Below, piece after piece: positions 14,675 through 64,000 of a DNA stretch of 64,000 nucleotides (positions within the stretch are counted from its first letter, which is position 1; each line of letters begins with the position of its first letter). The notes beneath the pieces were generated by a model, which was given only the letters and a program-made list of their open reading frames with translations, was not told the origin of the DNA and did not search any database. The position numbers and the translations under genes are program-made. This DNA is from a virus (taxonomy: Duplodnaviria; Heunggongvirae; Uroviricota; Caudoviricetes): IMG/VR virus record IMGVR_UViG_3300017987_000047; one strand, 5' to 3'.

Positions 14675-14938
14675 GTGATGACAATACTATATCATAATAA
14701 CGGAGAAGTCTATGGGGAAGTAGAGGAAGTTGATGGGAAAACTCTTGTTACTGTCTATACAAATAAACGTCTATTGCGTGGGGATGTCGCATTTCGTTGG
14801 GTAAACGAGAAAGGACTTCCCTTAGAGATAATACGAGAAACCCTAAATAAATATGATGCTGATGTAGAACTGTTAACCTATACTCTCTCCGGAATACAAC
14901 ATATCTTAAAATCAAAAGGTTTTAAGTTTGAGCAGTAA
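14675..14938 (+). CDS. Small protein resembling an alanyl-tRNA synthetase helical segment
   Basis: LRGDVAFRWVNEKGLPLEII resembles AlaRS 'SGxxAFxLYDTYGFPLDLT'. Confidence 0.4.
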   Translation: MMTILYHNNGEVYGEVEEVDGKTLVTVYTNKRLLRGDVAFRWVNEKGLPLEIIRETLNKYDADVELLTYTLSGIQHILKSKGFKFEQ

Positions 14939-15035
14939 GTTTTGACTGTAAGTTTGAAGCAGTAAGTTTTGTGAGAGGTTTGACTGTAAGTTTGAAACAG
15001 TAAGTTTTGAAGCAGTAAGTTTTGTGAGACAATAC

Positions 15036-15107
15036 CGGGGTGTAGTCGCGGGGAGCGACGTCTGCTTCGGAAGCAGAAGGCGGCAGGTTCGACCCCTGCC
15101 ACCCCGA
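15036..15107 (+). tRNA. tRNA-Pro(CGG)
   Basis: CGGGGTG/CACCCCG, TCTGC-TTCGGAA-GCAGA, A73. Confidence 0.9.
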
Positions 15108-15145
15108 CTTGAGATAGTAAGTTTGAAACAGTAAGTTTTGTGAGA

Positions 15146-15220
15146 GGGCTCGCATGTTCCAAGGGTAGGCGATCTGGACTTGCAATCCGGATGAGGTGAG
15201 TTCGATTCTCACCGGGTCCA
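15146..15220 (+). tRNA. tRNA-Ala(TGC)
   Basis: GGGCTCG/CGGGTCC with G3:U70, CTGGA-CTTGCAA-TCCGG; atypical D arm. Confidence 0.85.
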
Positions 15221-15237
15221 TTTGAGTAAGTTTGAAG

Positions 15238-15342
15238 CAGAGCGTGGAGGAGTCTGGATGTCCTCGTCCGCCAAGGACCGTTATATAACGGACGCCACCC
15301 CTTGGACGCGGAAGAACGTGGGTTCAAATCCCACCGCTCTGA
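15238..15342 (+). tRNA. tRNA-Pro with a 29-nt insertion/intron in the anticodon loop
   Basis: CAGAGCG/CGCTCTG, C1-G72, A73; anticodon stem TCCGC/GCGGA encloses 36 nt instead of 7. Confidence 0.7.
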
Positions 15343-15353
15343 TGCAAATAAAT

Positions 15354-15683
15354 GCCAACGTAGCTCAATTAGGCAGAGCAGCTCACTTGTTTGAATACGA
15401 GCGCCTATAATGAAAGTTGTAGGATGAACCGGGTGAATTCAGGGAAGGCTAAGTCTTTTAGGATATGTTAACCCTGAGCCAAGCCAGAAGTACACTTCTG
15501 GAAGGTGCAGAGACTACTGGAGAGGTTCAGCCCTCTTAATAACCAGCTAGAGCGCCCGGCACCCTAACGAGGAAGACGAGGGTGGTGAGATAGTCCAACA
15601 CTTATTGGAAACAATAAGGAAAAAGAGAACAGTTCTCTTTTGTGGTAATGAGCAGGTTGTCAGTTCGATTCTGACCGTTGGCT
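15354..15683 (+). tRNA. tRNA-Thr(TGT), split by a group I intron (exons 15354-15388, 15645-15683)
   Basis: GCCAACG/CGTTGGC acceptor; spliced arm GCTCA-CTTGTAA-TGAGC. Confidence 0.9.
15389..15644 (+). ncRNA. Group I self-splicing intron (IC3-like, no ORF, 256 nt)
   Basis: P1 CTTGT/ACGAG with U.G at the splice site; core AATTCAGGGAA, AACCCTGAGCCAAG, GGTGCAGAGACTA, GATAGTCC; terminal G. Confidence 0.9.
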
Positions 15684-15727
15684 CTAACAAGTGCCTTTTA
15701 AGGGCCGATCCTTGGGGCCTAGCGAAG

Positions 15728-15802
15728 CGAAGCGTGGGCTAATTGGGAAGCCGCTTGCTTTGGGAGCAAGACATCATGGGAGTTCAAGTCTCTCCGCCTC
15801 GA
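15728..15802 (+). tRNA. tRNA-Pro(TGG)
   Basis: CGAAGCG/CGCCTCG (one mismatch), CTTGC-TTTGGGA-GCAAG. Confidence 0.85.
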
Positions 15803-15829: not shown

Positions 15830-16864
15830 TTAATTATTTTCACATTGTGGGAAATGGTGTTCTCTGTGGCAGGTCGAGCACAATAAAATACATTTTTCTG
15901 CTTCTTTTAAAATTTTCTTCCACGGCCGGCATAACCCTGTTCGGGACAATGAAAAATCTTTTCCTTTTTCATGATGAAATTCTAAGCCTGTAAGATTTTT
16001 TTTATACCCACAAATAGAACATTCCCCTCCCTTCAAACCGATTAACTTTTTCCTTTTAAGAAGGTCTCTTCGTTTTGTTCGGCAGTGGCTATTTTGCTTA
16101 CTTGAAATTTTTAAGTTCCTTAGTAAGCTTTTTAATTTATCTTCATCAAAATCTTTATTATGAATTTCGTGATGGCAATTCGCACAAACTAAAATACATT
16201 TCTTTGCTTCCTCTAGAAGGGTATCCCAGTGCTTTTCAAAGGCAGCGGTATTTAAGTTAAAAGTTTTTTCTTTAACATGATGAAAATCTAGAGCTGCTAA
16301 ATTTTTAGCGTAACCACAAATAGAGCATTTTCCTCCATTAAGTTCTACTAATTTCTTTTTCCTTCTAAGAAGAGAAGCATTTCGTTTTTCTTTAGTCTTT
16401 GCATCCCGGGGAATATTTCTACTTTTCTTTTTACATCTATAGCATGTCCTTGCGTGAAGCTTTTTTCTATCTTCCGGTAGGGGATCGCCACAAACAACAC
16501 AAGTTTCCCAACTACAGTTGCCACAGACTTTAATCGCTGCTTTTTTATGCCCCTTAATTATAAACTCTTCCCCACACCGGGAACAAAGCTTTTTATATTC
16601 TTTAGGCTTCTTTCTTACGTTATTATAAGAAGCTGAACACGACTGGGAGCAAAACTTATCACTTGTTTTAGAGGTTATAATCTCTCCACAATTCAAACAA
16701 TGTTTTATATTTTTAGGATTAAGTTTACATGCTGGTTCGTGTTTAACTAGATTCGGTTTTGTAAACTCCTTACTACAAAACTTACATTTATACCTTTTGG
16801 AATTTATTTTCTTTGCATTTTCTCTACAAATTTCAATTCTTTTTTCTATTCCTGTCTTCTCCAC
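15830..16864 (-). CDS. Zinc-ribbon protein with two HNH-type endonuclease domains (free-standing homing endonuclease-like)
   Basis: Two CSICGY..L[DE]FHH..CILxCxxCHxExH repeats; GGAGG SD before GTG 16864. Confidence 0.8.
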   Translation of the reverse strand: MEKTGIEKRIEICRENAKKINSKRYKCKFCSKEFTKPNLVKHEPACKLNPKNIKHCLNCGEIITSKTSDKFCSQSCSASYNNVRKKPKEYKKLCSRCGEEFIIKGHKKAAIKVCGNCSWETCVVCGDPLPEDRKKLHARTCYRCKKKSRNIPRDAKTKEKRNASLLRRKKKLVELNGGKCSICGYAKNLAALDFHHVKEKTFNLNTAAFEKHWDTLLEEAKKCILVCANCHHEIHNKDFDEDKLKSLLRNLKISSKQNSHCRTKRRDLLKRKKLIGLKGGECSICGYKKNLTGLEFHHEKGKDFSLSRTGLCRPWKKILKEAEKCILLCSTCHREHHFPQCENN

Positions 16865-16966
16865 AGACTTACCTCCAATACTTTTTAGTATAATATACAG
16901 GTTATTTTGCGAAAAAATTGTCACATGGGGACTCATTACCCGCATTTAGAGATGGAGAGTTAAGAG
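16857..16966. repeat. Diverged ~110-nt direct repeat, copy 1
   Basis: Aligns with 21931-22039 (TTCTCCACA..CTTACCTCC..GTATAATATACA..). Confidence 0.75.
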
Positions 16967-41945: not shown

Positions 41946-42010
41946 ACGTTACCTAAAGAAAAAGAATATTCTTTTTCGAAATTTCGTAAAAGGATTATAG
42001 TGAAGCTCTA

Positions 42011-45461: not shown

Positions 45462-45803
45462 ATGTTCAATAATAAGGATCCACGATGGAGTTCAATGATA
45501 CCGGAACCTGGTATCTATGATATAACAGAGGGGCACCACGTTTTTATTAGGTATAGCGGGCAATCCCCGATATTTGTTTTTATAAAAACAAAAGCCTTAG
45601 AACAATTCAAACAAGGGGAACCCGCTGTTAGTCTATTATTTGTAACACCAAGCAGATATTCAGAAATGTTTTGTAACTTAGGGGCAGCAGGAACGATTTT
45701 CCATGTTATTATAGAGGAGAAGTTTAATTCTAAGTCAGTAAGCCCCACTCAATTTCTCACGCATCCTTCCCCACAGATTCGGCAAGCTGCGAAAGACTTC
45801 TAA
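45462..45803 (+). CDS. LT-box protein
   Basis: FLTHPSPQIRQAAK. Confidence 0.8.
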   Translation: MFNNKDPRWSSMIPEPGIYDITEGHHVFIRYSGQSPIFVFIKTKALEQFKQGEPAVSLLFVTPSRYSEMFCNLGAAGTIFHVIIEEKFNSKSVSPTQFLTHPSPQIRQAAKDF

Positions 45804-48944: not shown

Positions 48945-50279
48945 GTGAACTACTCCCACGTAAACGTAGGAGCTTCTTTCCTAATTAATAACCGTTGGAC
49001 TTACCACCTTAGGTGGGTCCTTTGGTAATAGAAAAGCATGATTTTGGGCAGTCCCTGCCCTACGTAATAATTGTCCTTTTTTCTTAATAACTAAAGCTGC
49101 GTTAATGTCTCTATCATGATGAGTTTTGCAACTTAAACAAGTCCATTCCCTATCTTTGAGCTTCAAATCCTTATTCACCCAATCACAGGCATGACATGTT
49201 TTTGAAGTGTTTCTTGGGGGGACGAGAACTAGTTCTCGTCCATACCAGGAGGCTTTATATTCAATCATAGATTTCAGCATAGAAATAGCAGTGTTAGATG
49301 CAGCAAATGCTAGGTTTCTATTCTTAATCATAAATTGGACTGTTAAATCTTCTAGATAAATTGCTTGGTTTTCGTCAATTATCTTTTTTGAGATTTTATC
49401 TAATTTATCTTTTCTAACATTTTTAACTTTTTCATGACATCTCGCAACTTTTAGTTTTTGTTTTTTATAGTTGTTTGATCCTCTCTTCTTCTTTGAAAGT
49501 TTTCTTTGATTTTTTCTCAATTTCTTATGATATTTATCTAAATTCTGATGCTTATCATGCTTCTCACCATTATCTTCAATCAAAGCATTTTTGATTCCAA
49601 AATCTAGTCCGACTTCATTCTTAGTTCTTTTTAACTTCTTCTGCTTTTGATCATGAAAACAAAGAGAAGCAAAATATTTATTAGTTGAAGTCTTTTTGAT
49701 AGTGCAAAAAGAAATCTTTCCATTAATTTCTCTATGCCTTTTGATTCTAATTCCTTCAAGGAATGCAGGCATTTTAAGGAGATTTTCTTCAATTTTGATT
49801 CCTTGAGGGATTCTAAAAGACTTTTCAGAGAAATTTCTCTTTTTGAATTTAGGAGGTCCTGCTTTTAATTTTGGACTGAAGAAGTTTTTATATGCTTGGT
49901 GAAGGTCTCTAAGAGCAGCTTGACAGGCTTGAGAATGAATGGTTTTCATCCATTCTAAGGACTTCCTTAATTGGGTTAAAGTTGCTTGGTCTTCCTTATA
50001 AAAAGAAAATTTCAATCCATTTTTATGATGCTCCTTTTTGAGGGCTAAAAAATGATTATAGATAAATCTACGAGCACCAAAAAACTGATCAAATTTCTTG
50101 ATTTGATCTTTTGATGGATAGATTCTAAACTTGTATAATTTAGTGATGGTTGATCTTTTAGACTTTCTAACCATGGTATAAAATTATACATGTTAGAGGA
50201 TTATAACGTAAGGCAAAATTGCTTTTTTGACACAATTCATCCTCGCGCGTGAACGCGGAGGACTTTTTGCGTAGGCACA
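48945..50279 (-). mobile_element. IS200/IS605-family (IS1341-type, TnpB-only) element
   Basis: Subterminal hairpins at ~48952-48976 and ~50240-50263; no tnpA; ends approximate. Confidence 0.75.
48981..50174 (-). CDS. tnpB: RNA-guided endonuclease TnpB
   Basis: YKFRIYP HTH; RuvC GLDFG / LEDL / DRDINAA; zinc ribbon CHAC..CLSC. Confidence 0.95.
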   Translation of the reverse strand: MVRKSKRSTITKLYKFRIYPSKDQIKKFDQFFGARRFIYNHFLALKKEHHKNGLKFSFYKEDQATLTQLRKSLEWMKTIHSQACQAALRDLHQAYKNFFSPKLKAGPPKFKKRNFSEKSFRIPQGIKIEENLLKMPAFLEGIRIKRHREINGKISFCTIKKTSTNKYFASLCFHDQKQKKLKRTKNEVGLDFGIKNALIEDNGEKHDKHQNLDKYHKKLRKNQRKLSKKKRGSNNYKKQKLKVARCHEKVKNVRKDKLDKISKKIIDENQAIYLEDLTVQFMIKNRNLAFAASNTAISMLKSMIEYKASWYGRELVLVPPRNTSKTCHACDWVNKDLKLKDREWTCLSCKTHHDRDINAALVIKKKGQLLRRAGTAQNHAFLLPKDPPKVVSPTVIN

Positions 50280-55054: not shown

Positions 55055-55573
55055 TTGGAAAAAGTCATCTTCCTAGATATGGATGGTGTTCTGGCCTTTG
55101 GTCGTTGGGTAAAAATTGACGACAAAACATACGAAGCAATCATCGAAGAAACCCAGCTTCAAAGATTTGCGGAGCTTATAGAGGCAACTAAAGCAACCGT
55201 TATTCTAAGTTCTGCCTGGAGACGATGTAAGTCAGATAGAAAGCAAATCAGCGAAGCTTTAGAGTCTGTCGGGGTAGCTTGGGACCCTGAAAATCGGACT
55301 CCAGACACAAAAAACGGAAATAGGGCTGATGAAATCCAGGCTTGGCTAGATAAGCACCCAGAAGTTAAAAAATTCGCTGTTTTAGATGATGACGCAACTG
55401 CGGCAGTCTTTGGAGAGAACTATTTCCAAACGTACTGGCCCGAGGTTTCTAACGAAGAAGTTAAGGCAGACCCAAACTGGGAAACTACTTTTAAGGGTCG
55501 TTTCGAAGTTGCTGGTTTAACCACGGAAGTTGTCAGTAGTGTAGTTGAACATTTAGGAGGTACCAATGAGTAG
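55055..55573 (+). CDS. HAD phosphatase (Swiss-Army-knife RNA repair HAD type)
   Basis: FLDMDGVL, ILSSAWR, RADEIQAWL, AVLDDD. Confidence 0.8.
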   Translation: MEKVIFLDMDGVLAFGRWVKIDDKTYEAIIEETQLQRFAELIEATKATVILSSAWRRCKSDRKQISEALESVGVAWDPENRTPDTKNGNRADEIQAWLDKHPEVKKFAVLDDDATAAVFGENYFQTYWPEVSNEEVKADPNWETTFKGRFEVAGLTTEVVSSVVEHLGGTNE

Positions 55574-57946: not shown

Positions 57947-58272
57947 TTGGGTTTGCTATTTCGGTTATCCTTTCTGGCCTTTTTCCACAATATATTCTGG
58001 TCATTATCCCCCTTGTGTTTGGTTCAATGATTCTTTATCAAAAATCCCACGGCTGTACTTGCTTTTCTTGGAATGCCTCCCTACCTGACCGGCGGGATAT
58101 CCCATGTCCTTATCATAGCCAGCTCTACGCAAAGGAAGAGGTTAAGAATGCAGCAAAATCAGGGAGGGGTGCCATTACTTCTCTCCTAACATCCAAGAAT
58201 AAGTATTTCAGGTCTGCCGCAAGAGAGTTTCTTAAGAAACACCCCTTAACCAAAGGAAAAGACAATGAGTGA
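57922..58272 (+). CDS. LT-box membrane protein with a CxC..CPYH domain
   Basis: TM segment; LLTSKNKYFRSAAR. Confidence 0.8.
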   Translation: MRTSISEIIGFAISVILSGLFPQYILVIIPLVFGSMILYQKSHGCTCFSWNASLPDRRDIPCPYHSQLYAKEEVKNAAKSGRGAITSLLTSKNKYFRSAAREFLKKHPLTKGKDNE

Positions 58273-59209
58273 AATTATCGTAATCGTTGGGTACCCCGCC
58301 GCCGGAAAATCCTCTCTCTGCAAGGAGTTTGAGGATCAGGGTTATATGCGGGTTAACCGTGATACCTTGGGCGGAACTCTAAAAGACCTTGCTGAATACG
58401 CAAAGAAGCTTATTAGCGAAGGGAAAAAGAAACTTGTTCTCGACAACACTTATGGCACGATTGAAAGCCGTAAGGTTGTAATTGAGCTTGGGAAAGAAAC
58501 AAACATCCCTGTTCGTTGTGTTTGGCTTGATACCAGTATTGAAGATTCCCAATTCAATGCCTGCATGAGGATGATGCAACGGTTTGGGAAGGTTCTAGCC
58601 CCAGACGAGATTAAGAAAAAGAAAGACCCTAACACTTTCCCGGCGGCAGTACAATTCAAGTATCGGAAGGCTTTTGAAAAACCAAAGAAAGAGGAAGGGT
58701 TTACGTCTATAGAGAAAAGGAAGTTTGAGCGAGTCCTAGATCCGGAGTATTGTAACTCTGCTTTGATTCTTGACTACGATGGGTGTCTCAGAGAAACAAA
58801 AAGCGATAAAAAATACCCCACCAGCCCAGATGATATCCGAATTCTTCCGGGAAGGGGGGAGAAGCTTAAGAAGCTACTTAAAGATGATCCCTCGCTATTA
58901 TTGTTGGGGGCTTCAAATCAAAGTGGAATCGCAAAGGGTGTTTTATCGGAAGAAGACGCCCGAGCTTGCTTCGATTTCACGAATAAGGAGCTCGGGGTTG
59001 ATATCGAATATCGTTTCTGCCCCCATAAGGTCCCACCAATTTCTTGCTTCTGCCGGAAACCGATGCCTGGGATTGGCGTTTATTTTGTCGAAAAGTACAA
59101 ACTGAATCCTGAAAAGGTAACAATGGTTGGGGATATGAAATCAGATGAGACTTTCGCTAAACGGTGTGGGTTTAAGTTTATTCATTCTGACGATTTTTTC
59201 AAGGTATAA
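58265..59209 (+). CDS. Polynucleotide kinase / HAD-IIIA phosphatase fusion (PNKP-like)
   Basis: GYPAAGKS, VLDNT kinase domain; LDYDG, SNQSG, RKP.PG, VGD..SD phosphatase domain. Confidence 0.8.
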   Translation: MSEIIVIVGYPAAGKSSLCKEFEDQGYMRVNRDTLGGTLKDLAEYAKKLISEGKKKLVLDNTYGTIESRKVVIELGKETNIPVRCVWLDTSIEDSQFNACMRMMQRFGKVLAPDEIKKKKDPNTFPAAVQFKYRKAFEKPKKEEGFTSIEKRKFERVLDPEYCNSALILDYDGCLRETKSDKKYPTSPDDIRILPGRGEKLKKLLKDDPSLLLLGASNQSGIAKGVLSEEDARACFDFTNKELGVDIEYRFCPHKVPPISCFCRKPMPGIGVYFVEKYKLNPEKVTMVGDMKSDETFAKRCGFKFIHSDDFFKV

Positions 59210-59253: not shown

Positions 59254-60333
59254 ATGGACAGCAAGGAAATAAAACCAGGGTTCTACTGGTGTGAATGGAA
59301 TCATGGGCCTATCCAAAAAGTTGTAGGATACTACGTCGAAGATAGGTTATATTTCTCAGCGTGGGGAGGTCATCCGGGTGGCTGGTGGGCTGAGTATATC
59401 GCAAAACGAGCGAAACGGCTTATTCCAATCCCGGATAAACCGCCGAAGCAAGGGGTATCGGCGAAAGAGGACACAATGTCTCATACCCCTAAGTGGTTAG
59501 TTGTTTATTCGGGTAGTAAATTCGCACAGGATGCTGCTAATAAAATTTGTGGCTTGCTACAAAAACGCAGGATCGATTTTGAAAAATGTTCTGTTTTCGA
59601 AATTTCAAAGAAAATACCGCTCGAAATTCAACAAACTTTCAACCTAGCTATTGTCTGTGGTGGAGACGGTACAATTCTTGGAACTCAACGGCAGCTTAAA
59701 GTCGAAAATCTCCCCCTAGTTGGAGTCAACCTGGGCCGATTGGGCTTTCTTGCTGAATTTGAATTTTCAAAATTCGAAGAAAAGATTGACCAGTTAGCCG
59801 AAAAATTCGAATTACGCAACCGGTTAAGGTTAAGAACAACTCTTTCTCGGAATAATAAAGTTATCTTCGAAGAAATTGCATTAAACGAAGCAGCGATAAC
59901 CCAATCAGGGATTTCCCGTATGGTTGGGGTAAACGTTTTCATAAACAATCAATTTTGTGGAAATATTCAAGGAGATGGGTTATTGATCGCAACCCCATCT
60001 GGGTCTACTGCCTACTCCTTAGCAGCAGGAGGATCTCTAGCACACCCGGAATTAGAGACAATTCTATTAACGCCCATTTGTTCCCATTCCTTAACAGTAC
60101 GTCCTATTATCTTGCCGCCGGATCGAAATATAAAAGTGAAACTGATGGATGACAGAAAAGCCGCAACCGTTGTTACGGTTGATGGGCAGGTTTCAGTCGA
60201 GATGCAAGTGGGCGACGAGTTACTTGTTTCTAGAGCTCCAGATTTATTGACTGTTAAATCCACAACACATAACTTCTTCGATGCCTTGCAAACAAAACTA
60301 AATTGGTCTGGGCATGCAAACCTCCCACAATAA
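59254..60333 (+). CDS. nadK: NAD+ kinase with a 74-aa N-terminal extension (internal start likely at 59476)
   Basis: GGDGT, GVNLGRLGFL, LNE, GDGLLIATPSGSTAYSLAAGG. Confidence 0.9.
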   Translation: MDSKEIKPGFYWCEWNHGPIQKVVGYYVEDRLYFSAWGGHPGGWWAEYIAKRAKRLIPIPDKPPKQGVSAKEDTMSHTPKWLVVYSGSKFAQDAANKICGLLQKRRIDFEKCSVFEISKKIPLEIQQTFNLAIVCGGDGTILGTQRQLKVENLPLVGVNLGRLGFLAEFEFSKFEEKIDQLAEKFELRNRLRLRTTLSRNNKVIFEEIALNEAAITQSGISRMVGVNVFINNQFCGNIQGDGLLIATPSGSTAYSLAAGGSLAHPELETILLTPICSHSLTVRPIILPPDRNIKVKLMDDRKAATVVTVDGQVSVEMQVGDELLVSRAPDLLTVKSTTHNFFDALQTKLNWSGHANLPQ

Positions 60334-60395: not shown

Positions 60396-60965
60396 ATGAT
60401 TGAGAGACAAACAAAGGCAGGGATTATTCAAACTTCCTCCGGATTGAAATTTGATATTTGCAATCCAAATCCCGAGCTAATAAATATTGAAGATATTGCG
60501 GATGCGCTTTCAAAACTTTGCCGGTTTGGAGGCCATACGACATCGTTCTATAGTGTAGCGCAACATTGTTGCCTTGTTGCCTTACAACTCCCCCTTGACC
60601 TAGCCATGTGGGGTTTATTGCACGACGCATCGGAGGCTTACTTAGTTGACATTCCATCCCCGATTAAAAAGTTACTTCCGACTTATATTGAGTTTGAAGA
60701 AGGGTTACACCAAGCAGTTGCGAAGAAGTTTGACCTTTCTTGGCCTATGCCAGAGGCTGTGAAATGGGCCGATGAAATTGCGCTGGCAACGGAAGCCCGA
60801 GACCTTATGGGAAGCGTTGGGAAAAAACGATGGGGAAGCCTTAAAGGCATTCCAATGCTTCAAGATAAAGTTGTCCCCGTTACGTCAGATGTTGCGTATC
60901 GGGATTTTCTCAAACACTATGAGATTTTAAGTAATTTCATAGAACACCAAAAGGAAGCTTCTTAG
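60396..60965 (+). CDS. HD-domain 5'-deoxynucleotidase-like (YfdR/YfbR type)
   Basis: CRFGGH..FYSVAQH..LLHDASEAY..DIPSP.K. Confidence 0.85.
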   Translation: MIERQTKAGIIQTSSGLKFDICNPNPELINIEDIADALSKLCRFGGHTTSFYSVAQHCCLVALQLPLDLAMWGLLHDASEAYLVDIPSPIKKLLPTYIEFEEGLHQAVAKKFDLSWPMPEAVKWADEIALATEARDLMGSVGKKRWGSLKGIPMLQDKVVPVTSDVAYRDFLKHYEILSNFIEHQKEAS

Positions 60966-61336
60966 GTGGGCAGGTAACCGCGGCAGCAATGTCGAGGAAA
61001 GTCCGGACTCCCCAGAGCAAGAAAGTCGCTAACAGCGACCGGGCGCGAGCCTAGGGAAAGTGCCACAGAAAATAAACCGCCGATGGCCCTCTTTGGGCAC
61101 AGGTGACGATGAAAAGGTGGGGTAAGAGCCCACCGCCGTTTCTGGCGACAGAGCGGGCATGGTAAACCCTTTCTGGAGCAAGCTCAAACAGACTGGAGGT
61201 GTTGCTCGCACCATTTGACAGTCGGGTAGAGTGCAGGAGGCAAAAGCCCCTACTCAGGTCGCGCCAGGACCCAAAAAATAGCCTGAGTAAGATGAATGGT
61301 TACCCAACGACAGAATCCGGCTTATTCCTACCTAAG
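60961..61336 (+). ncRNA. rnpB: RNase P RNA, bacterial type A
   Basis: GAGGAAAGTCCGGACTC, AGTGCCACAGAAA, GGTAAACCC..GAGCAAG, AGATGAATG, ACAGAATCCGGCTTA; P1 CTTAGGTGGG/CCTACCTAAG. Confidence 0.95.
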
Positions 61337-61372
61337 CAAGTTTTCCCTTCCCTCAGCCAACGGAAAAAATTA

Positions 61373-62335: not shown

Positions 62336-63046
62336 ATGGATAAAACATCACTAGGCGATCGAATGAAACGTTTCGAGGGGATTACTAATCCAGTTGTTGT
62401 CCCCCGAATGCCCATTATTTTGCGGGTTGATGGAAAAGCTTTCCACAACTGGGTAAAGAAAATTAATGCCGAAAAGCCCTTTGACCAGCGGCTACTTGAC
62501 GCAATGGGCGATACAGCAATTGAGCTTTGCCAAGAGATTCAGGGGGCTGTTTTTGCTTATCAGCAATCCGACGAAATCTCAATCTTGATTCACCCTTACC
62601 AGAATCTTGAAAGCCAGCCGTGGTTTGGCGGTAAATTACAAAAGATGGTTTCAATCTCTGCCGCAACTGCGAGTTCCTTTATGTCCCTGCGGTTTGGCAT
62701 TAAAACTATCTTCGATTCAAGGGTTTTTGTTCTCCCAGAAAATGAGGTTATTAACTATTTCATCTGGCGCCAACAGGATGCCTCCCGAAACTCTGTCCAG
62801 ATGGTGGCAAGAAGCAAGTTTTCACACAAGGCTTGCAACAATAAGTCCTGTAATGAGTTGCAAGAGATGCTTTGGCAAGAACATAACCTTAACTGGAACG
62901 ATCTGCCTCCCGTTCAGAAGCGTGGGCTTGGTATTCTCCGGAGAGACGGGAAATGGGATAAGGATTTTGATATCCCAATCTTTACTCAGGATAGGGATTA
63001 CATTAAAAACTTATTTTTCCAGAAAACTGAGGAAGTAAAAGAGTAA
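62336..63046 (+). CDS. thg1: tRNA(His) guanylyltransferase / Thg1-like protein
   Basis: RVDGKAFH, QSDEIS, FDSRV, YFIWRQQD..RNS, KRG. Confidence 0.95.
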   Translation: MDKTSLGDRMKRFEGITNPVVVPRMPIILRVDGKAFHNWVKKINAEKPFDQRLLDAMGDTAIELCQEIQGAVFAYQQSDEISILIHPYQNLESQPWFGGKLQKMVSISAATASSFMSLRFGIKTIFDSRVFVLPENEVINYFIWRQQDASRNSVQMVARSKFSHKACNNKSCNELQEMLWQEHNLNWNDLPPVQKRGLGILRRDGKWDKDFDIPIFTQDRDYIKNLFFQKTEEVKE

Positions 63047-63908: not shown

Positions 63909-63993
63909 GGTGGGTATGGCGGAATTGGTATACGCGCAAGACTGTGGATCTTGTGGGCAATAGCCCTTGTGGGTTCGAACCCCACTATCCACC
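63909..63993 (+). tRNA. tRNA-His(GTG) with genomic G-1:C73 and a long variable arm
   Basis: G-GTGGGTA/TATCCAC-C, CAAGA-CTGTGGA-TCTTG, V arm GGGC-AATA-GCCC. Confidence 0.9.
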
Positions 63994-64000
63994 CTTTCAG

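What the first reader, a model, noticed from the sequence alone, without database searches (positions are those of the whole stretch)
15238..15342. tRNA-Pro with a 29-nt intron-like insertion and bulge-helix geometry; two alternative Pro anticodons
Seen: the anticodon stem TCCGC/GCGGA encloses CAAGGAC-CGTTATATAACGGACGCCACCC-CTTGGAC. CAAG pairs with CTTG as a 4-bp helix, leaving a 3-nt GAC bulge on the 3' strand, and CCGTTA-TA-TAACGG forms a hairpin. Established: this resembles the archaeal/eukaryal bulge-helix-loop splice substrate at 37/38, which bacteria normally lack. Inference: canonical 37/38 excision gives loop CAAGGAC (anticodon AGG, Pro, atypical A33), while removing the 5' 29 nt gives CTTGGAC (TGG, Pro). 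Both fit the Pro body (C1-G72, A73). It may be a masked tRNA activated by cleavage and ligation, or a nuclease decoy. PNKP-like and HAD enzymes are in the window, but no ligase or splicing endonuclease is.
Basis: partly seen in the sequence, partly recalled or inferred. Interest (0 to 1): 0.72.

Follow-up and report, generated by a model that had tools for sequence, protein, structure and literature searches.

The report
Phage proline tRNA with 29-base insert
A giant phage carries an otherwise perfect proline tRNA gene with a small structured 29-base insert in its anticodon loop; it is either a dead gene or one of the unexplained short introns of large-phage tRNAs.

Summary
By my reading all 21 stem pairs are Watson-Crick. 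The fold keeps the cloverleaf and pairs the insert's start with the anticodon.

The insert is not random sequence. Its perfect 14-nt palindrome appears in 36 of 100,000 shuffles.

The archaeal bulge-helix-loop reading is weak:
- The same register arises in 2.2-7.6% of shuffles.
- It would give an A33/A34 loop.
- The context is bacterial (RNase P RNA type A).
- No EndA, RtcB or RNA ligase was seen among 105 ORFs.

UGG is the likely true anticodon.

I found no relative carrying this tRNA cluster and no RNA data, so splicing is untested.

- Best guess (0.4): a short, non-self-splicing insert of the kind called "enigmatic" in Lak megaphages (PMC6784885), removed by protein cutting and ligation.
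- Close rival (0.3): a recently inactivated, redundant tRNA gene.

The scan noted similar short inserts before on other phage DNA, and this same stretch in two other windows.

The parts
15238..15342 (+). Whole interrupted tRNA-Pro gene (105 nt; 76 nt without the insert; no encoded CCA)
   Evidence: ARAGORN with introns allowed; fold; sequence
15238..15272 (+). 5' part: acceptor 5' strand, D arm, anticodon stem 5' strand (15267-15271) and C32 (15272)
15273..15301 (+). 29-nt insert as placed by ARAGORN (15272-15300 gives the same product); 16 of 29 bases are G or C by my count, in a window of about 40% GC
   Evidence: composition; count read
15272..15276 (+). CAAGG, the 5' strand of the helix that masks the anticodon; it holds the alternative AGG triplet (15274-15276)
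   Evidence: fold; 545 of 100,000 shuffles give at least 5 Watson-Crick pairs in this register
15278..15291 (+). Perfect 14-nt palindrome; as RNA it forms a 5-bp hairpin with an AUAU loop
   Evidence: a palindrome of 14 nt or more in 36 of 100,000 shuffles
15276..15297 (+). Possible 7-pair mini-helix (one A.A mismatch) followed by GCCA; cutting at its ends would leave a 14-nt loop, so it does not define the splice sites
   Evidence: read; reasoning in the report
15300..15304 (+). CCUUG, the 3' strand of the masking helix (last two insert bases plus U33, U34, G35)
15303..15305 (+). UGG, the anticodon of the likely mature or ancestral tRNA (loop CUUGGAC with U33)
   Evidence: the same 7-nt loop occurs uninterrupted in a Verrucomicrobiota tRNA-Pro and in one contig of run X5 (table 7)
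15305..15307 (+). GAC, a 3-nt bulge next to the anticodon stem in the unspliced fold (G36, A37, C38)
15302..15342 (+). 3' part: U33 to A73, including the anticodon stem 3' strand (15308-15312), the T arm and the acceptor 3' strand
15036..15108 (+). Context: tRNA-Pro(CGG), first gene of the cluster
   Evidence: 50.8 bits
15146..15220 (+). Context: tRNA-Ala(UGC), below the Rfam tRNA threshold, with a D stem rich in G-U pairs
15354..15684 (+). Context: tRNA-Thr(UGU) with a 256-nt group I intron, 11 nt downstream
   Evidence: (RF00028, 92.8 bits)
15728..15802 (+). Context: uninterrupted second tRNA-Pro(UGG), with one A.C mismatch in the acceptor stem; it makes the interrupted copy redundant
   Evidence: (49.7 bits); 61.6% identity to the interrupted gene with the insert removed
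15830..16945 (-). Context: free-standing HNH endonuclease gene converging on the cluster
   Evidence: PHROGs, phrog_2255 at E 1.8e-36
58265..59209 (+). Candidate end-healing enzyme: polynucleotide kinase plus 3'-phosphatase
   Evidence: Pfam AAA_33 and PNK3P; phrog_505
55055..55573 (+). HAD domain of the RNA-repair ('Swiss Army Knife') type
   Evidence: Pfam PF18143, E 1.9e-21
60962..61339 (+). Phage-encoded RNase P RNA, bacterial class A (5' maturation of the tRNA transcripts)
   Evidence: Rfam RF00010, 243.3 bits

Best explanation
This is a tRNA-Pro(UGG) gene of an uncultured giant phage of bacteria. A short, structured, non-self-splicing insert interrupts it between C32 and U33. The insert belongs to the same loose class as the 'enigmatic' short introns reported in Lak megaphage tRNAs.

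Proposed route (all steps inferred, none shown):
1. The gene is transcribed with its four neighbours. The spacers are 17 and 11 nt.
2. RNase P and a 3' nuclease release a 105-nt precursor.
3. The insert folds back on the anticodon. CAAGG pairs with CCUUG and stacks on the anticodon stem, next to a 5-bp hairpin. The precursor therefore cannot decode and is probably not recognised by ProRS through G35/G36.
4. A protein endonuclease, still unidentified, cuts on both sides of the 29 nt.
5. The ends are healed if needed. The phage PNK/3'-phosphatase at 58265-59209 could do this.
6. An RNA ligase seals the ends. None is present in this window, so it would be a phage ligase elsewhere in the genome or a host RtcB.
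7. The result is a normal loop, CUUGGAC.

Only the anatomy is shown.
For: - The tRNA body is flawless. ARAGORN draws a cloverleaf with a 29-nt intron. By my reading, all 21 stem pairs are Watson-Crick and C1-G72 and A73 are present. Without the insert the sequence folds as a cloverleaf at -31.9 kcal/mol.
- The insert lies in the 7-nt anticodon loop, where all known tRNA intron types sit.
- The insert is not random (000 shuffles): a palindrome of 14 nt or more in 36; at least 5 Watson-Crick pairs masking the anticodon in 545; three GGAC copies in 366.
- 16 of its 29 bases are G or C, in a window of about 40% GC.
- The real insert keeps the cloverleaf intact. Only 713 of 2000 shuffled inserts do.
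- The phage invests in tRNA processing and repair: RNase P RNA, PNK/3'-phosphatase, an RNA-repair HAD domain and a Thg1-like enzyme.
- Precedent: Lak megaphage tRNAs carry introns that are conserved, often identical across cohorts, and were called enigmatic (PMC6784885; abstract and passages read).
- RNA ligases and RtcB are common in jumbo phages (PMC7824862; passages read).
- Earlier notes of this scan list many short hairpin inserts in other phage tRNAs. They are unchecked leads, not evidence.
- CCA is the commonest proline codon in 71 ORFs (176 of 570), so a UGG tRNA is useful to the phage.
Against: - No enzyme that removes such inserts is known in bacteria or their phages.
- No RNA ligase, RtcB, EndA or RNase III was seen among 105 ORFs of the window. 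Only 25 of the 37 families found were listed. Neighbouring ORFs gave none either.
- An uninterrupted tRNA-Pro(UGG) lies 386 nt downstream, so this copy is dispensable.
- The cluster also holds a sub-threshold tRNA-Ala, which fits a decaying cluster.
- Folding energy of the insert is ordinary: 320 of 2000 shuffles are as stable, and 1404 of 2000 also pair U34 and G35.
- The cut geometry fits neither RNase III (it gives 5' overhangs, not 3') nor a strict bulge-helix-bulge motif.
- Conservation could not be tested. I recovered no relative with this cluster.
- Any insertion can be 'removed' on paper to restore the loop, so the exact restoration is not evidence.
Confidence: 0.4

Rival explanations
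1. Dead gene. A small palindromic piece of DNA was inserted recently into the anticodon loop of a redundant tRNA-Pro(UGG) copy, for example during repair of a break made by a homing endonuclease. The RNA is still cut out of the cluster transcript, but it is useless and will decay.
For: - An intact tRNA-Pro(UGG) lies 386 nt downstream.
- tRNA-Ala in the same cluster scores below the Rfam tRNA threshold.
- A free-standing HNH endonuclease gene is adjacent.
- No removal machinery is known, and none was seen in the window.
- Folding energy is ordinary.
- tRNA arrays do contain pseudogenes: 3 of 26 genes in the Anabaena array were not detected as RNA (PMC8421152; passages read).
- An earlier unchecked note reports another interrupted, apparently broken tRNA in this genome (e1-5676263).
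Against: - All 21 stem pairs are Watson-Crick, which is better than the 'intact' copy with its A.C mismatch. So no decay is visible yet.
- The insert is structured and GC-rich, unlike the AT-rich non-coding DNA of this phage.
- Random insertion would hit the 7-nt loop in only about 1 of 10 cases.
Confidence: 0.3
2. Functional unspliced RNA. The 105-nt tRNA look-alike works as it is. It could be a decoy or sponge for a host nuclease that cuts tRNA-Pro anticodon loops, since it shows two Pro-type heptamers. Or it could be a masked reserve tRNA or a sensor.
For: - Two near-identical heptamers (CAAGGAC and CUUGGAC) and three GGAC copies are present. Three GGAC copies occur in 366 of 100,000 shuffles.
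- The acceptor, D and T arms are intact.
- Sponge roles for array tRNAs have been proposed (PMC8421152; discussion passage read).
- Phages carry tRNAs against tRNA-cutting defences. I saw only the search listing and abstract of PMC13096335.
Against: - No nuclease specific for tRNA-Pro is known to me (recalled).
- No family of such RNAs was found: Rfam at E<=10 gives only chance-level hits, and no relatives turned up.
- Both heptamers are largely base-paired to each other, so they are not displayed as loops.
Confidence: 0.12
3. DNA-level element. The 14-bp perfect palindrome is a protein-binding site, or the insert protects this genome from the neighbouring HNH endonuclease by breaking its target site. 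The effect on the tRNA is incidental or is tolerated through splicing.
For: - A perfect palindrome through its centre is more than an RNA hairpin needs (36 of 100,000 shuffles).
- The HNH gene is 488 nt downstream.
- An ORF-less group I intron sits in the next tRNA. That is the layout of collaborative homing (recalled from the literature on free-standing homing endonucleases).
Against: - The palindrome occurs once in the window. The only other matches, at up to 3 mismatches, are at chance level.
- The window has 12 palindromes of 14 nt or more by my count, against 2-8 in 30 shuffles, and none is related to this one.
- The endonuclease target is unknown.
Confidence: 0.1
4. Archaeal-type splicing. 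A bulge-helix-loop substrate is cut at 37/38 by an EndA-like endonuclease and ligated by RtcB, giving tRNA-Pro(AGG).
For: The 4-bp helix (CAAG with CUUG) lies next to the anticodon stem, followed by the 3-nt GAC bulge. This places both formal cut sites as in a canonical 37/38 intron (the geometry rules are recalled).
Against: - There is no closing helix on the 5' side, and the fold prefers 5 bp.
- The register arises in 2.2% (Watson-Crick only) to 7.6% (with G-U) of shuffles, because two of its elements come from the tRNA loop itself.
- The product would have A33 instead of the near-universal U33, and an A34 that bacteria use only in tRNA-Arg (recalled).
- The context is bacterial: class A RNase P RNA, C1-G72 and A73.
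- No EndA or RtcB family appears among the listed hits.
Confidence: 0.03

Closest known systems
'Enigmatic' introns in tRNAs of Lak megaphages (Devoto et al. 2019, PMC6784885; abstract and passages read)
   Same: Both are short insertions in tRNA genes of very large phages of bacteria. Both are found only when intron-aware tRNA finders are used, cannot be classified with Rfam, and have no known removal route.
   Different: The Lak case shown in that paper's Fig. 4 legend is itself tRNA-shaped, and its conservation across cohorts was demonstrated. Here the insert is a 29-nt anticodon-masking segment with a small palindromic hairpin, and conservation could not be tested. The Lak intron table (Table S6) is a supplement that I could not see.
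Archaeal/eukaryal bulge-helix-bulge or bulge-helix-loop tRNA introns, cut by EndA and joined by RtcB
   Same: The insert is in the anticodon loop and pairs with the anticodon. A 3-nt bulge lies next to the anticodon stem, after a 4-5 bp helix.
   Different: There is no second bulge closed by a helix. The product of that register has A33/A34. The host context is bacterial, and no EndA or RtcB was seen in the window.
Group I introns in bacterial and phage tRNA anticodon loops (the neighbouring tRNA-Thr is an example; RF00028)
   Same: Same site class (anticodon loop), same gene cluster, and next to a free-standing HNH endonuclease gene.
   Different: 29 nt cannot hold a ribozyme core. There is no U at any possible end of the 5' part, and no Rfam match.
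Phage T4 tRNA restriction-repair: PrrC cut, Pnk healing, Rnl1 sealing (recalled; the general theme is in PMC7824862)
   Same: It shows that an anticodon-loop break in a tRNA can be healed and sealed by phage enzymes. This phage has a Pnk-like kinase/phosphatase.
   Different: That pathway repairs one cut and removes nothing. Here two cuts 29 nt apart would be needed, and no ligase was found in the window.
Pseudo-tRNAs in tRNA gene arrays (Anabaena array, PMC8421152; passages read)
   Same: A redundant copy in a dense array of partly aberrant tRNA genes.
   Different: Those pseudogenes were defined by absence of the RNA. Here the body is intact, and the only defect is one structured insertion.

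Membership tests
Bulge-helix-bulge (strict) tRNA intron | Two 3-nt bulges on opposite strands, separated by a 4-bp helix and closed by helices on both sides | tested here: not met
   The 3' bulge (GAC) is present. The 5' side is an asymmetric internal loop (1 nt against 8 nt) with no closing helix, and the central helix is 5 bp in the MFE fold.
Bulge-helix-loop (relaxed) tRNA intron | A 3-nt bulge at the 3' site, a 4-bp helix, and the 5' site in a loop | tested here: inconclusive
   The geometry can be drawn. It also arises in 2212 (Watson-Crick only) to 7609 (with G-U) of 100,000 shuffled inserts.
Bulge-helix-bulge/loop tRNA intron | Splicing gives a canonical 7-nt anticodon loop | tested here: not met
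   The 37/38 register gives CAAGGAC, with A33 and A34 (read). ARAGORN prefers the UGG product.
Bulge-helix-bulge/loop tRNA intron | A splicing endonuclease (EndA) and a ligase are available in the virus or host | tested here: inconclusive
   None appears among the 25 of 37 Pfam families listed for 105 ORFs, nor. Only 64 kb of a genome of about 335-384 kb could be read, and the host is unknown.
Group I intron | A catalytic core (P3-P9) that matches RF00028 | tested here: not met
   The insert is 29 nt. There is no RF00028 match at E<=10 on 15200-15380. The neighbour's intron scores 92.8 bits.
Group I intron | U as the last base of the 5' exon and G as the last base of the intron | tested here: not met
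   The possible last bases of the 5' part are C, A, A, G, G, A and C. None is U (read).
RNase III-type hairpin mini-introns (earlier notes of this scan, unpublished) | The insert itself is a long hairpin, with both junctions at its base offset as a 2-nt 3' overhang | tested here: not met
   The hairpin has only 5 bp, or 7 with an A.A mismatch. The two junctions lie 2 bp apart in the masking helix with 5' overhang polarity (my reading of the structure).
tRNA-shaped, CCA-ended mini-introns (Lak Fig. 4 type; earlier notes) | The insert runs exactly from the first base of an acceptor-like helix to a CCA end | tested here: not met
   A mini-helix plus GCCA exists at 15276-15297. However, 3 nt before it and 4 nt after it also belong to the insert, so cutting at its ends leaves a 14-nt loop (read).
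Lak-type 'enigmatic' phage tRNA introns (PMC6784885) | An insertion in a tRNA gene of a large phage that cannot be classified with Rfam | tested here: met
   the phage nature of the window rests
Lak-type 'enigmatic' phage tRNA introns (PMC6784885) | The same insert is conserved in the same tRNA of related phages | not testable with these tools
Functional bacterial-type tRNA-Pro | A cloverleaf with C1-G72, A73, G35 and G36 (ProRS identity elements, recalled) | tested here: met
   and the sequence, once the 29 nt are set aside
Functional bacterial-type tRNA-Pro | A 7-nt anticodon loop in the gene as encoded, and a score above the RF00005 threshold | tested here: not met
   There are 36 nt between the strands of the anticodon stem. 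The gene is not reported at gathering threshold. The best clan hit is 16.7 bits.

The most novel reading that the evidence does not exclude
Bacteriophages, or their bacterial hosts, have a protein-dependent tRNA splicing pathway: an endonuclease, end healing by the phage kinase/phosphatase, and an RNA ligase. This pathway removes short anticodon-masking inserts such as this one. That would keep a phage tRNA-Pro(UGG) silent until it is processed. Splicing of non-ribozyme introns would then not be confined to archaea and eukaryotes.
Probability: 0.35. Interest if true: 0.85.

Novelty: new variant of a known kind. Interest (0 to 1): 0.45.

Why it matters
Textbooks hold that bacterial and phage tRNA introns are self-splicing ribozymes, and that protein-catalysed tRNA splicing belongs to archaea and eukaryotes. 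A 29-nt insert cannot splice itself.

If this tRNA matures, bacteria or their viruses must have an undescribed cut-and-rejoin route. It is probably tied to the RNA repair genes that large phages carry. It would also give phages a way to hold a tRNA in a masked state.

If it does not mature, the locus is an example of how phage tRNA arrays decay next to homing endonucleases. It is also a warning that intron-aware tRNA finders will call such wrecks 'intron-containing tRNAs'.

Tried and rejected
**1. Relatives**
- An exact 26-mer across the 5' junction in viral contigs found 0.
- A gapped pattern of the arm in viral contigs found 27 loci. All are GC-rich stretches with no tRNA shape around the match.
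- A gapped pattern allowing 7-37 nt between the stem strands found 0 in metagenome contigs.
- The 3' half of the tRNA found 0 in viral contigs.
- A 21-mer of the insert found 0 in genome contigs.
- The spacer repeat found 0 in viral contigs.
- A 'masked Pro' design pattern found 5 loci in viral contigs, none with an interrupted anticodon loop.
- blastn against 50,697 phage records gave only generic tRNA or intron pieces: 28 records for the 1-kb cluster and 54 for the tRNA, with none covering 80%.
- tblastn of two neighbouring proteins found no match.
- The upstream 224-aa protein has 4 clear relatives (42-63% identity) and 2 weak ones, besides itself (7 proteins with E<=0.001 among 170 candidates).
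- None of these relatives is in viral contigs: 132 pattern matches, 0 confirmed.
- Four short metagenome contigs were fetched (202 pattern matches, 4 confirmed). All 4 hold no tRNA.

**2. Expression**
- No RNA holder was listed by the look-up of sequencing runs. It listed 8 runs, and 4 DNA runs hold 98-99% of the words.

**3. Variants**
- Laying contigs of X5-X8 at 80% likeness gave only pieces of unrelated tRNAs and group I introns, and nothing across the insert.
- The single joint (15335 to 15744, side 20) is the kind the tool warns against.

**4. Splicing by the neighbouring group I ribozyme in trans**
- Rejected, because there is no U at any possible 5' junction.

**5. RNase P/RNase Z excision of the mini-helix plus GCCA**
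- Rejected, because it leaves a 14-nt loop.

**6. RNase III**
- Rejected, because the hairpin is too short and the overhang polarity is wrong.

**7. Small self-cleaving ribozymes**
- There is no Rfam match at E<=10.

**8. The insert as a repeated mobile element**
- It has no other copy in the window.

**9. A hidden ligase next to the HAD gene**
- Pfam at E<=1, PHROGs and the ESM Atlas gave nothing usable.

**10. Literature**
- Five searches found no paper on short non-ribozyme inserts in phage tRNAs other than PMC6784885.

**11. Host clue**
- A loop plus T-arm pattern hit one Verrucomicrobiota MAG tRNA-Pro. It has a different body, so it says nothing about the host.
Full report
**What is there**

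The window looks like part of a large phage. Almost all ORFs are small and lie on the + strand. GC is about 40%. PHROG hits include HNH endonucleases and a transposase. ARAGORN finds many tRNAs.

Earlier notes call it an uncultured 335-kb phage. The longest contig that holds one of its proteins is 384,251 bp.

Five tRNA genes lie at 15036-15802, with short spacers:
- tRNA-Pro(CGG), 15036-15108
- tRNA-Ala(UGC), 15146-15220
- the gene in question, 15238-15342
- tRNA-Thr(UGU) with a 256-nt group I intron, 15354-15684 (RF00028, 92.8 bits)
- an uninterrupted tRNA-Pro(UGG), 15728-15802

A free-standing HNH endonuclease gene converges on the cluster at 15830-16945 on the minus strand.

Default ARAGORN misses the gene (10 genes). 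With introns allowed it reports tRNA-Pro(tgg) with a 29-nt intron at 15273-15301, between C32 and U33 (12 genes).

By my reading:
- All 21 stem pairs are Watson-Crick.
- The acceptor stem starts C1-G72 and ends in A73. This is the bacterial proline pattern (recalled).
- No CCA is encoded.

The MFE fold has these features:
- It keeps the cloverleaf.
- It pairs CAAGG (15272-15276) with CCUUG (15300-15304).
- It leaves G36, A37 and C38 as a 3-nt bulge.
- It forms a 5-bp hairpin with an AUAU loop within the perfect 14-nt palindrome at 15278-15291.

Removing the 29 nt in different registers gives CUUGGAC (UGG), CAUGGAC or CAAGGAC (AGG).

**Chance**

I shuffled only the insert.

Energy is ordinary:
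- The arm folds at -14.3 kcal/mol, against a mean of -11.9 (sd 2.4). 320 of 2000 shuffles are as stable.
- The whole RNA is matched or beaten by 685 of 2000 shuffles.
- U34 and G35 are both paired in 1404 of 2000 shuffles.
- The cloverleaf body survives in only 713 of 2000 shuffles.

Specific features are rare in 100,000 shuffles:
- A palindrome of 14 nt or more: 36.
- At least 5 Watson-Crick pairs in the masking register: 545.
- Three GGAC copies: 366.
- A hairpin stem of 5 bp or more: 4755.

These tests were chosen after seeing the sequence, and they overlap. Even so, the insert is clearly structured rather than random. 16 of its 29 bases are G or C, in a genome of about 40% GC.

**The bulge-helix-loop idea**

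Drawn with a 4-bp helix, the two formal cut sites fall as in a canonical 37/38 intron. Five points weigh against this reading:
- No helix closes the 5' side, so the strict motif fails.
- Two elements of the geometry, the C32-G35 pair and the GAC bulge, belong to the tRNA's own loop. The register therefore appears in 2.2% (Watson-Crick only) to 7.6% (with G-U) of shuffles.
- The product would have A33 and A34.
- The context is bacterial. RNase P RNA of class A scores 243 bits at 60962-61339, and tRNA-His encodes G-1 opposite C73.
- No EndA or RtcB appears in the Pfam scan of 105 ORFs, although only 25 of 37 families were listed.

The UGG loop CUUGGAC is a natural one. It occurs uninterrupted with the same T arm in a Verrucomicrobiota MAG tRNA-Pro and in one contig of run X5 (table 7).

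**Other known routes**

- *Group I.* 29 nt cannot hold a ribozyme core. There is no Rfam hit at E<=10. No possible 5' junction ends in U, so the neighbouring ribozyme cannot use it either.
- *RNase III.* The hairpin has 5 bp, or 7 with an A.A mismatch. The two junctions sit 2 bp apart with 5' overhang polarity.
- *tRNA-shaped, CCA-ended inserts.* A mini-helix plus GCCA lies at 15276-15297, but cutting at its ends leaves a 14-nt loop.

**Context that bears on mechanism**

The window encodes several tRNA processing and repair functions:
- a PNK plus 3'-phosphatase, 58265-59209
- an RNA-repair-type HAD domain, 55055-55573
- a Thg1-like enzyme, 62336-63046
- RNase P RNA

I found no ligase. The rest of the genome could not be read, because no whole genome is held.

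Jumbo phages often carry RtcB, Rnl1 or Rnl2 (PMC7824862; passages read).

The three proline tRNAs are 56-62% identical, so they are not recent duplicates. CCA is the commonest proline codon, at 176 of 570 proline codons in 71 ORFs.

**Relatives and expression**

I could not recover any relative that carries this cluster. The calls are listed under Tried and rejected. The lineage is absent from IMG/VR and from 50,697 deposited phage records.

**Precedent**

Devoto et al. 2019 (PMC6784885; abstract and passages read) report introns in Lak megaphage tRNAs. The introns are conserved, often identical across cohorts, not classifiable, and called enigmatic. Five literature searches found nothing further.

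Earlier notes of this scan describe many short hairpin or tRNA-shaped inserts in other phage tRNAs, and this same stretch in two other windows. I treated them as leads. I tested two of their models on this insert, and neither fits.

**Verdict**

The insert is real and structured. It sits in a perfect tRNA-Pro(UGG) body and masks the anticodon.

| Reading | Probability |
|---|---|
| Short protein-spliced insert of the Lak 'enigmatic' kind, healed by the phage PNK and sealed by a ligase not yet seen | 0.4 |
| Recently inactivated redundant gene | 0.3 |
| Unspliced decoy or sensor | 0.12 |
| DNA-level element tied to the HNH gene | 0.1 |
| Archaeal-type splicing to AGG | 0.03 |

Only the anatomy is shown. 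Every enzymatic step is inferred.

Noticed in passing
window 60962-61339 (+): A complete bacterial class A RNase P RNA (243.3 bits, model 1-367) is encoded in what looks like a phage genome. A PNK/phosphatase, a Thg1-like gene and a tRNA array lie nearby.
   Followed up: partly
window 15354-15684 (+): tRNA-Thr(UGU) is interrupted after U34 by a 256-nt ORF-less group I intron (RF00028, 92.8 bits). It lies 11 nt downstream of the finding and close to a free-standing HNH gene.
   Followed up: partly
window 14935-15235 (+): Nine copies of GTAAGTTTKR lie in front of and between the first three tRNA genes. The whole window has 11 copies, against 0.93 expected. This may be a promoter, operator or processing signal of the cluster. 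No sigma-70-like promoter was found there.
   Followed up: partly
window 63910-63994 (+): tRNA-His(GUG) has a long variable arm with its own hairpin (a class II-like body) and an encoded G-1 opposite C73. It lies just downstream of a Thg1-like gene at 62336-63046.
   Followed up: partly
window 15146-15220 (+): tRNA-Ala(UGC) keeps G3.U70, but its D stem is mostly G-U pairs and it falls below the Rfam tRNA threshold. The best clan hit is 24.8 bits.
   Followed up: partly
L033 7402-7484 (also L032, L035, L036; IMG/VR phage contigs): A tRNA-Pro(UGG)-like gene sits in tRNA arrays and is not called by ARAGORN. It has C1-G72 and A73, an anticodon arm with loop CUUGGAA, and six extra bases (CCAAGG) before the D stem that are complementary to its own anticodon loop. 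It was found with a pattern that demanded this complementarity, so it may be chance.
   Followed up: partly
window 48981-50174 (-): A TnpB/IS605 OrfB-type gene (phrog_506, E 1.4e-115; Pfam OrfB_IS605 and Cas12f1-like TNB among the window's families) is one of the few minus-strand genes.
   Followed up: no
window, whole: By my count the window has 12 perfect palindromes of 14 nt or more, against 2-8 in 30 block shuffles. Examples are a 22-mer at 49220-49241 and 20-mers at 41958-41977 and 45573-45592.
   Followed up: no
window 59254-60333 and another ORF I did not locate: The phage encodes an NAD kinase (PF20143 and PF01513). Somewhere in the window it also encodes a dephospho-CoA kinase (CoaE, E 5.4e-36).
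   Followed up: no
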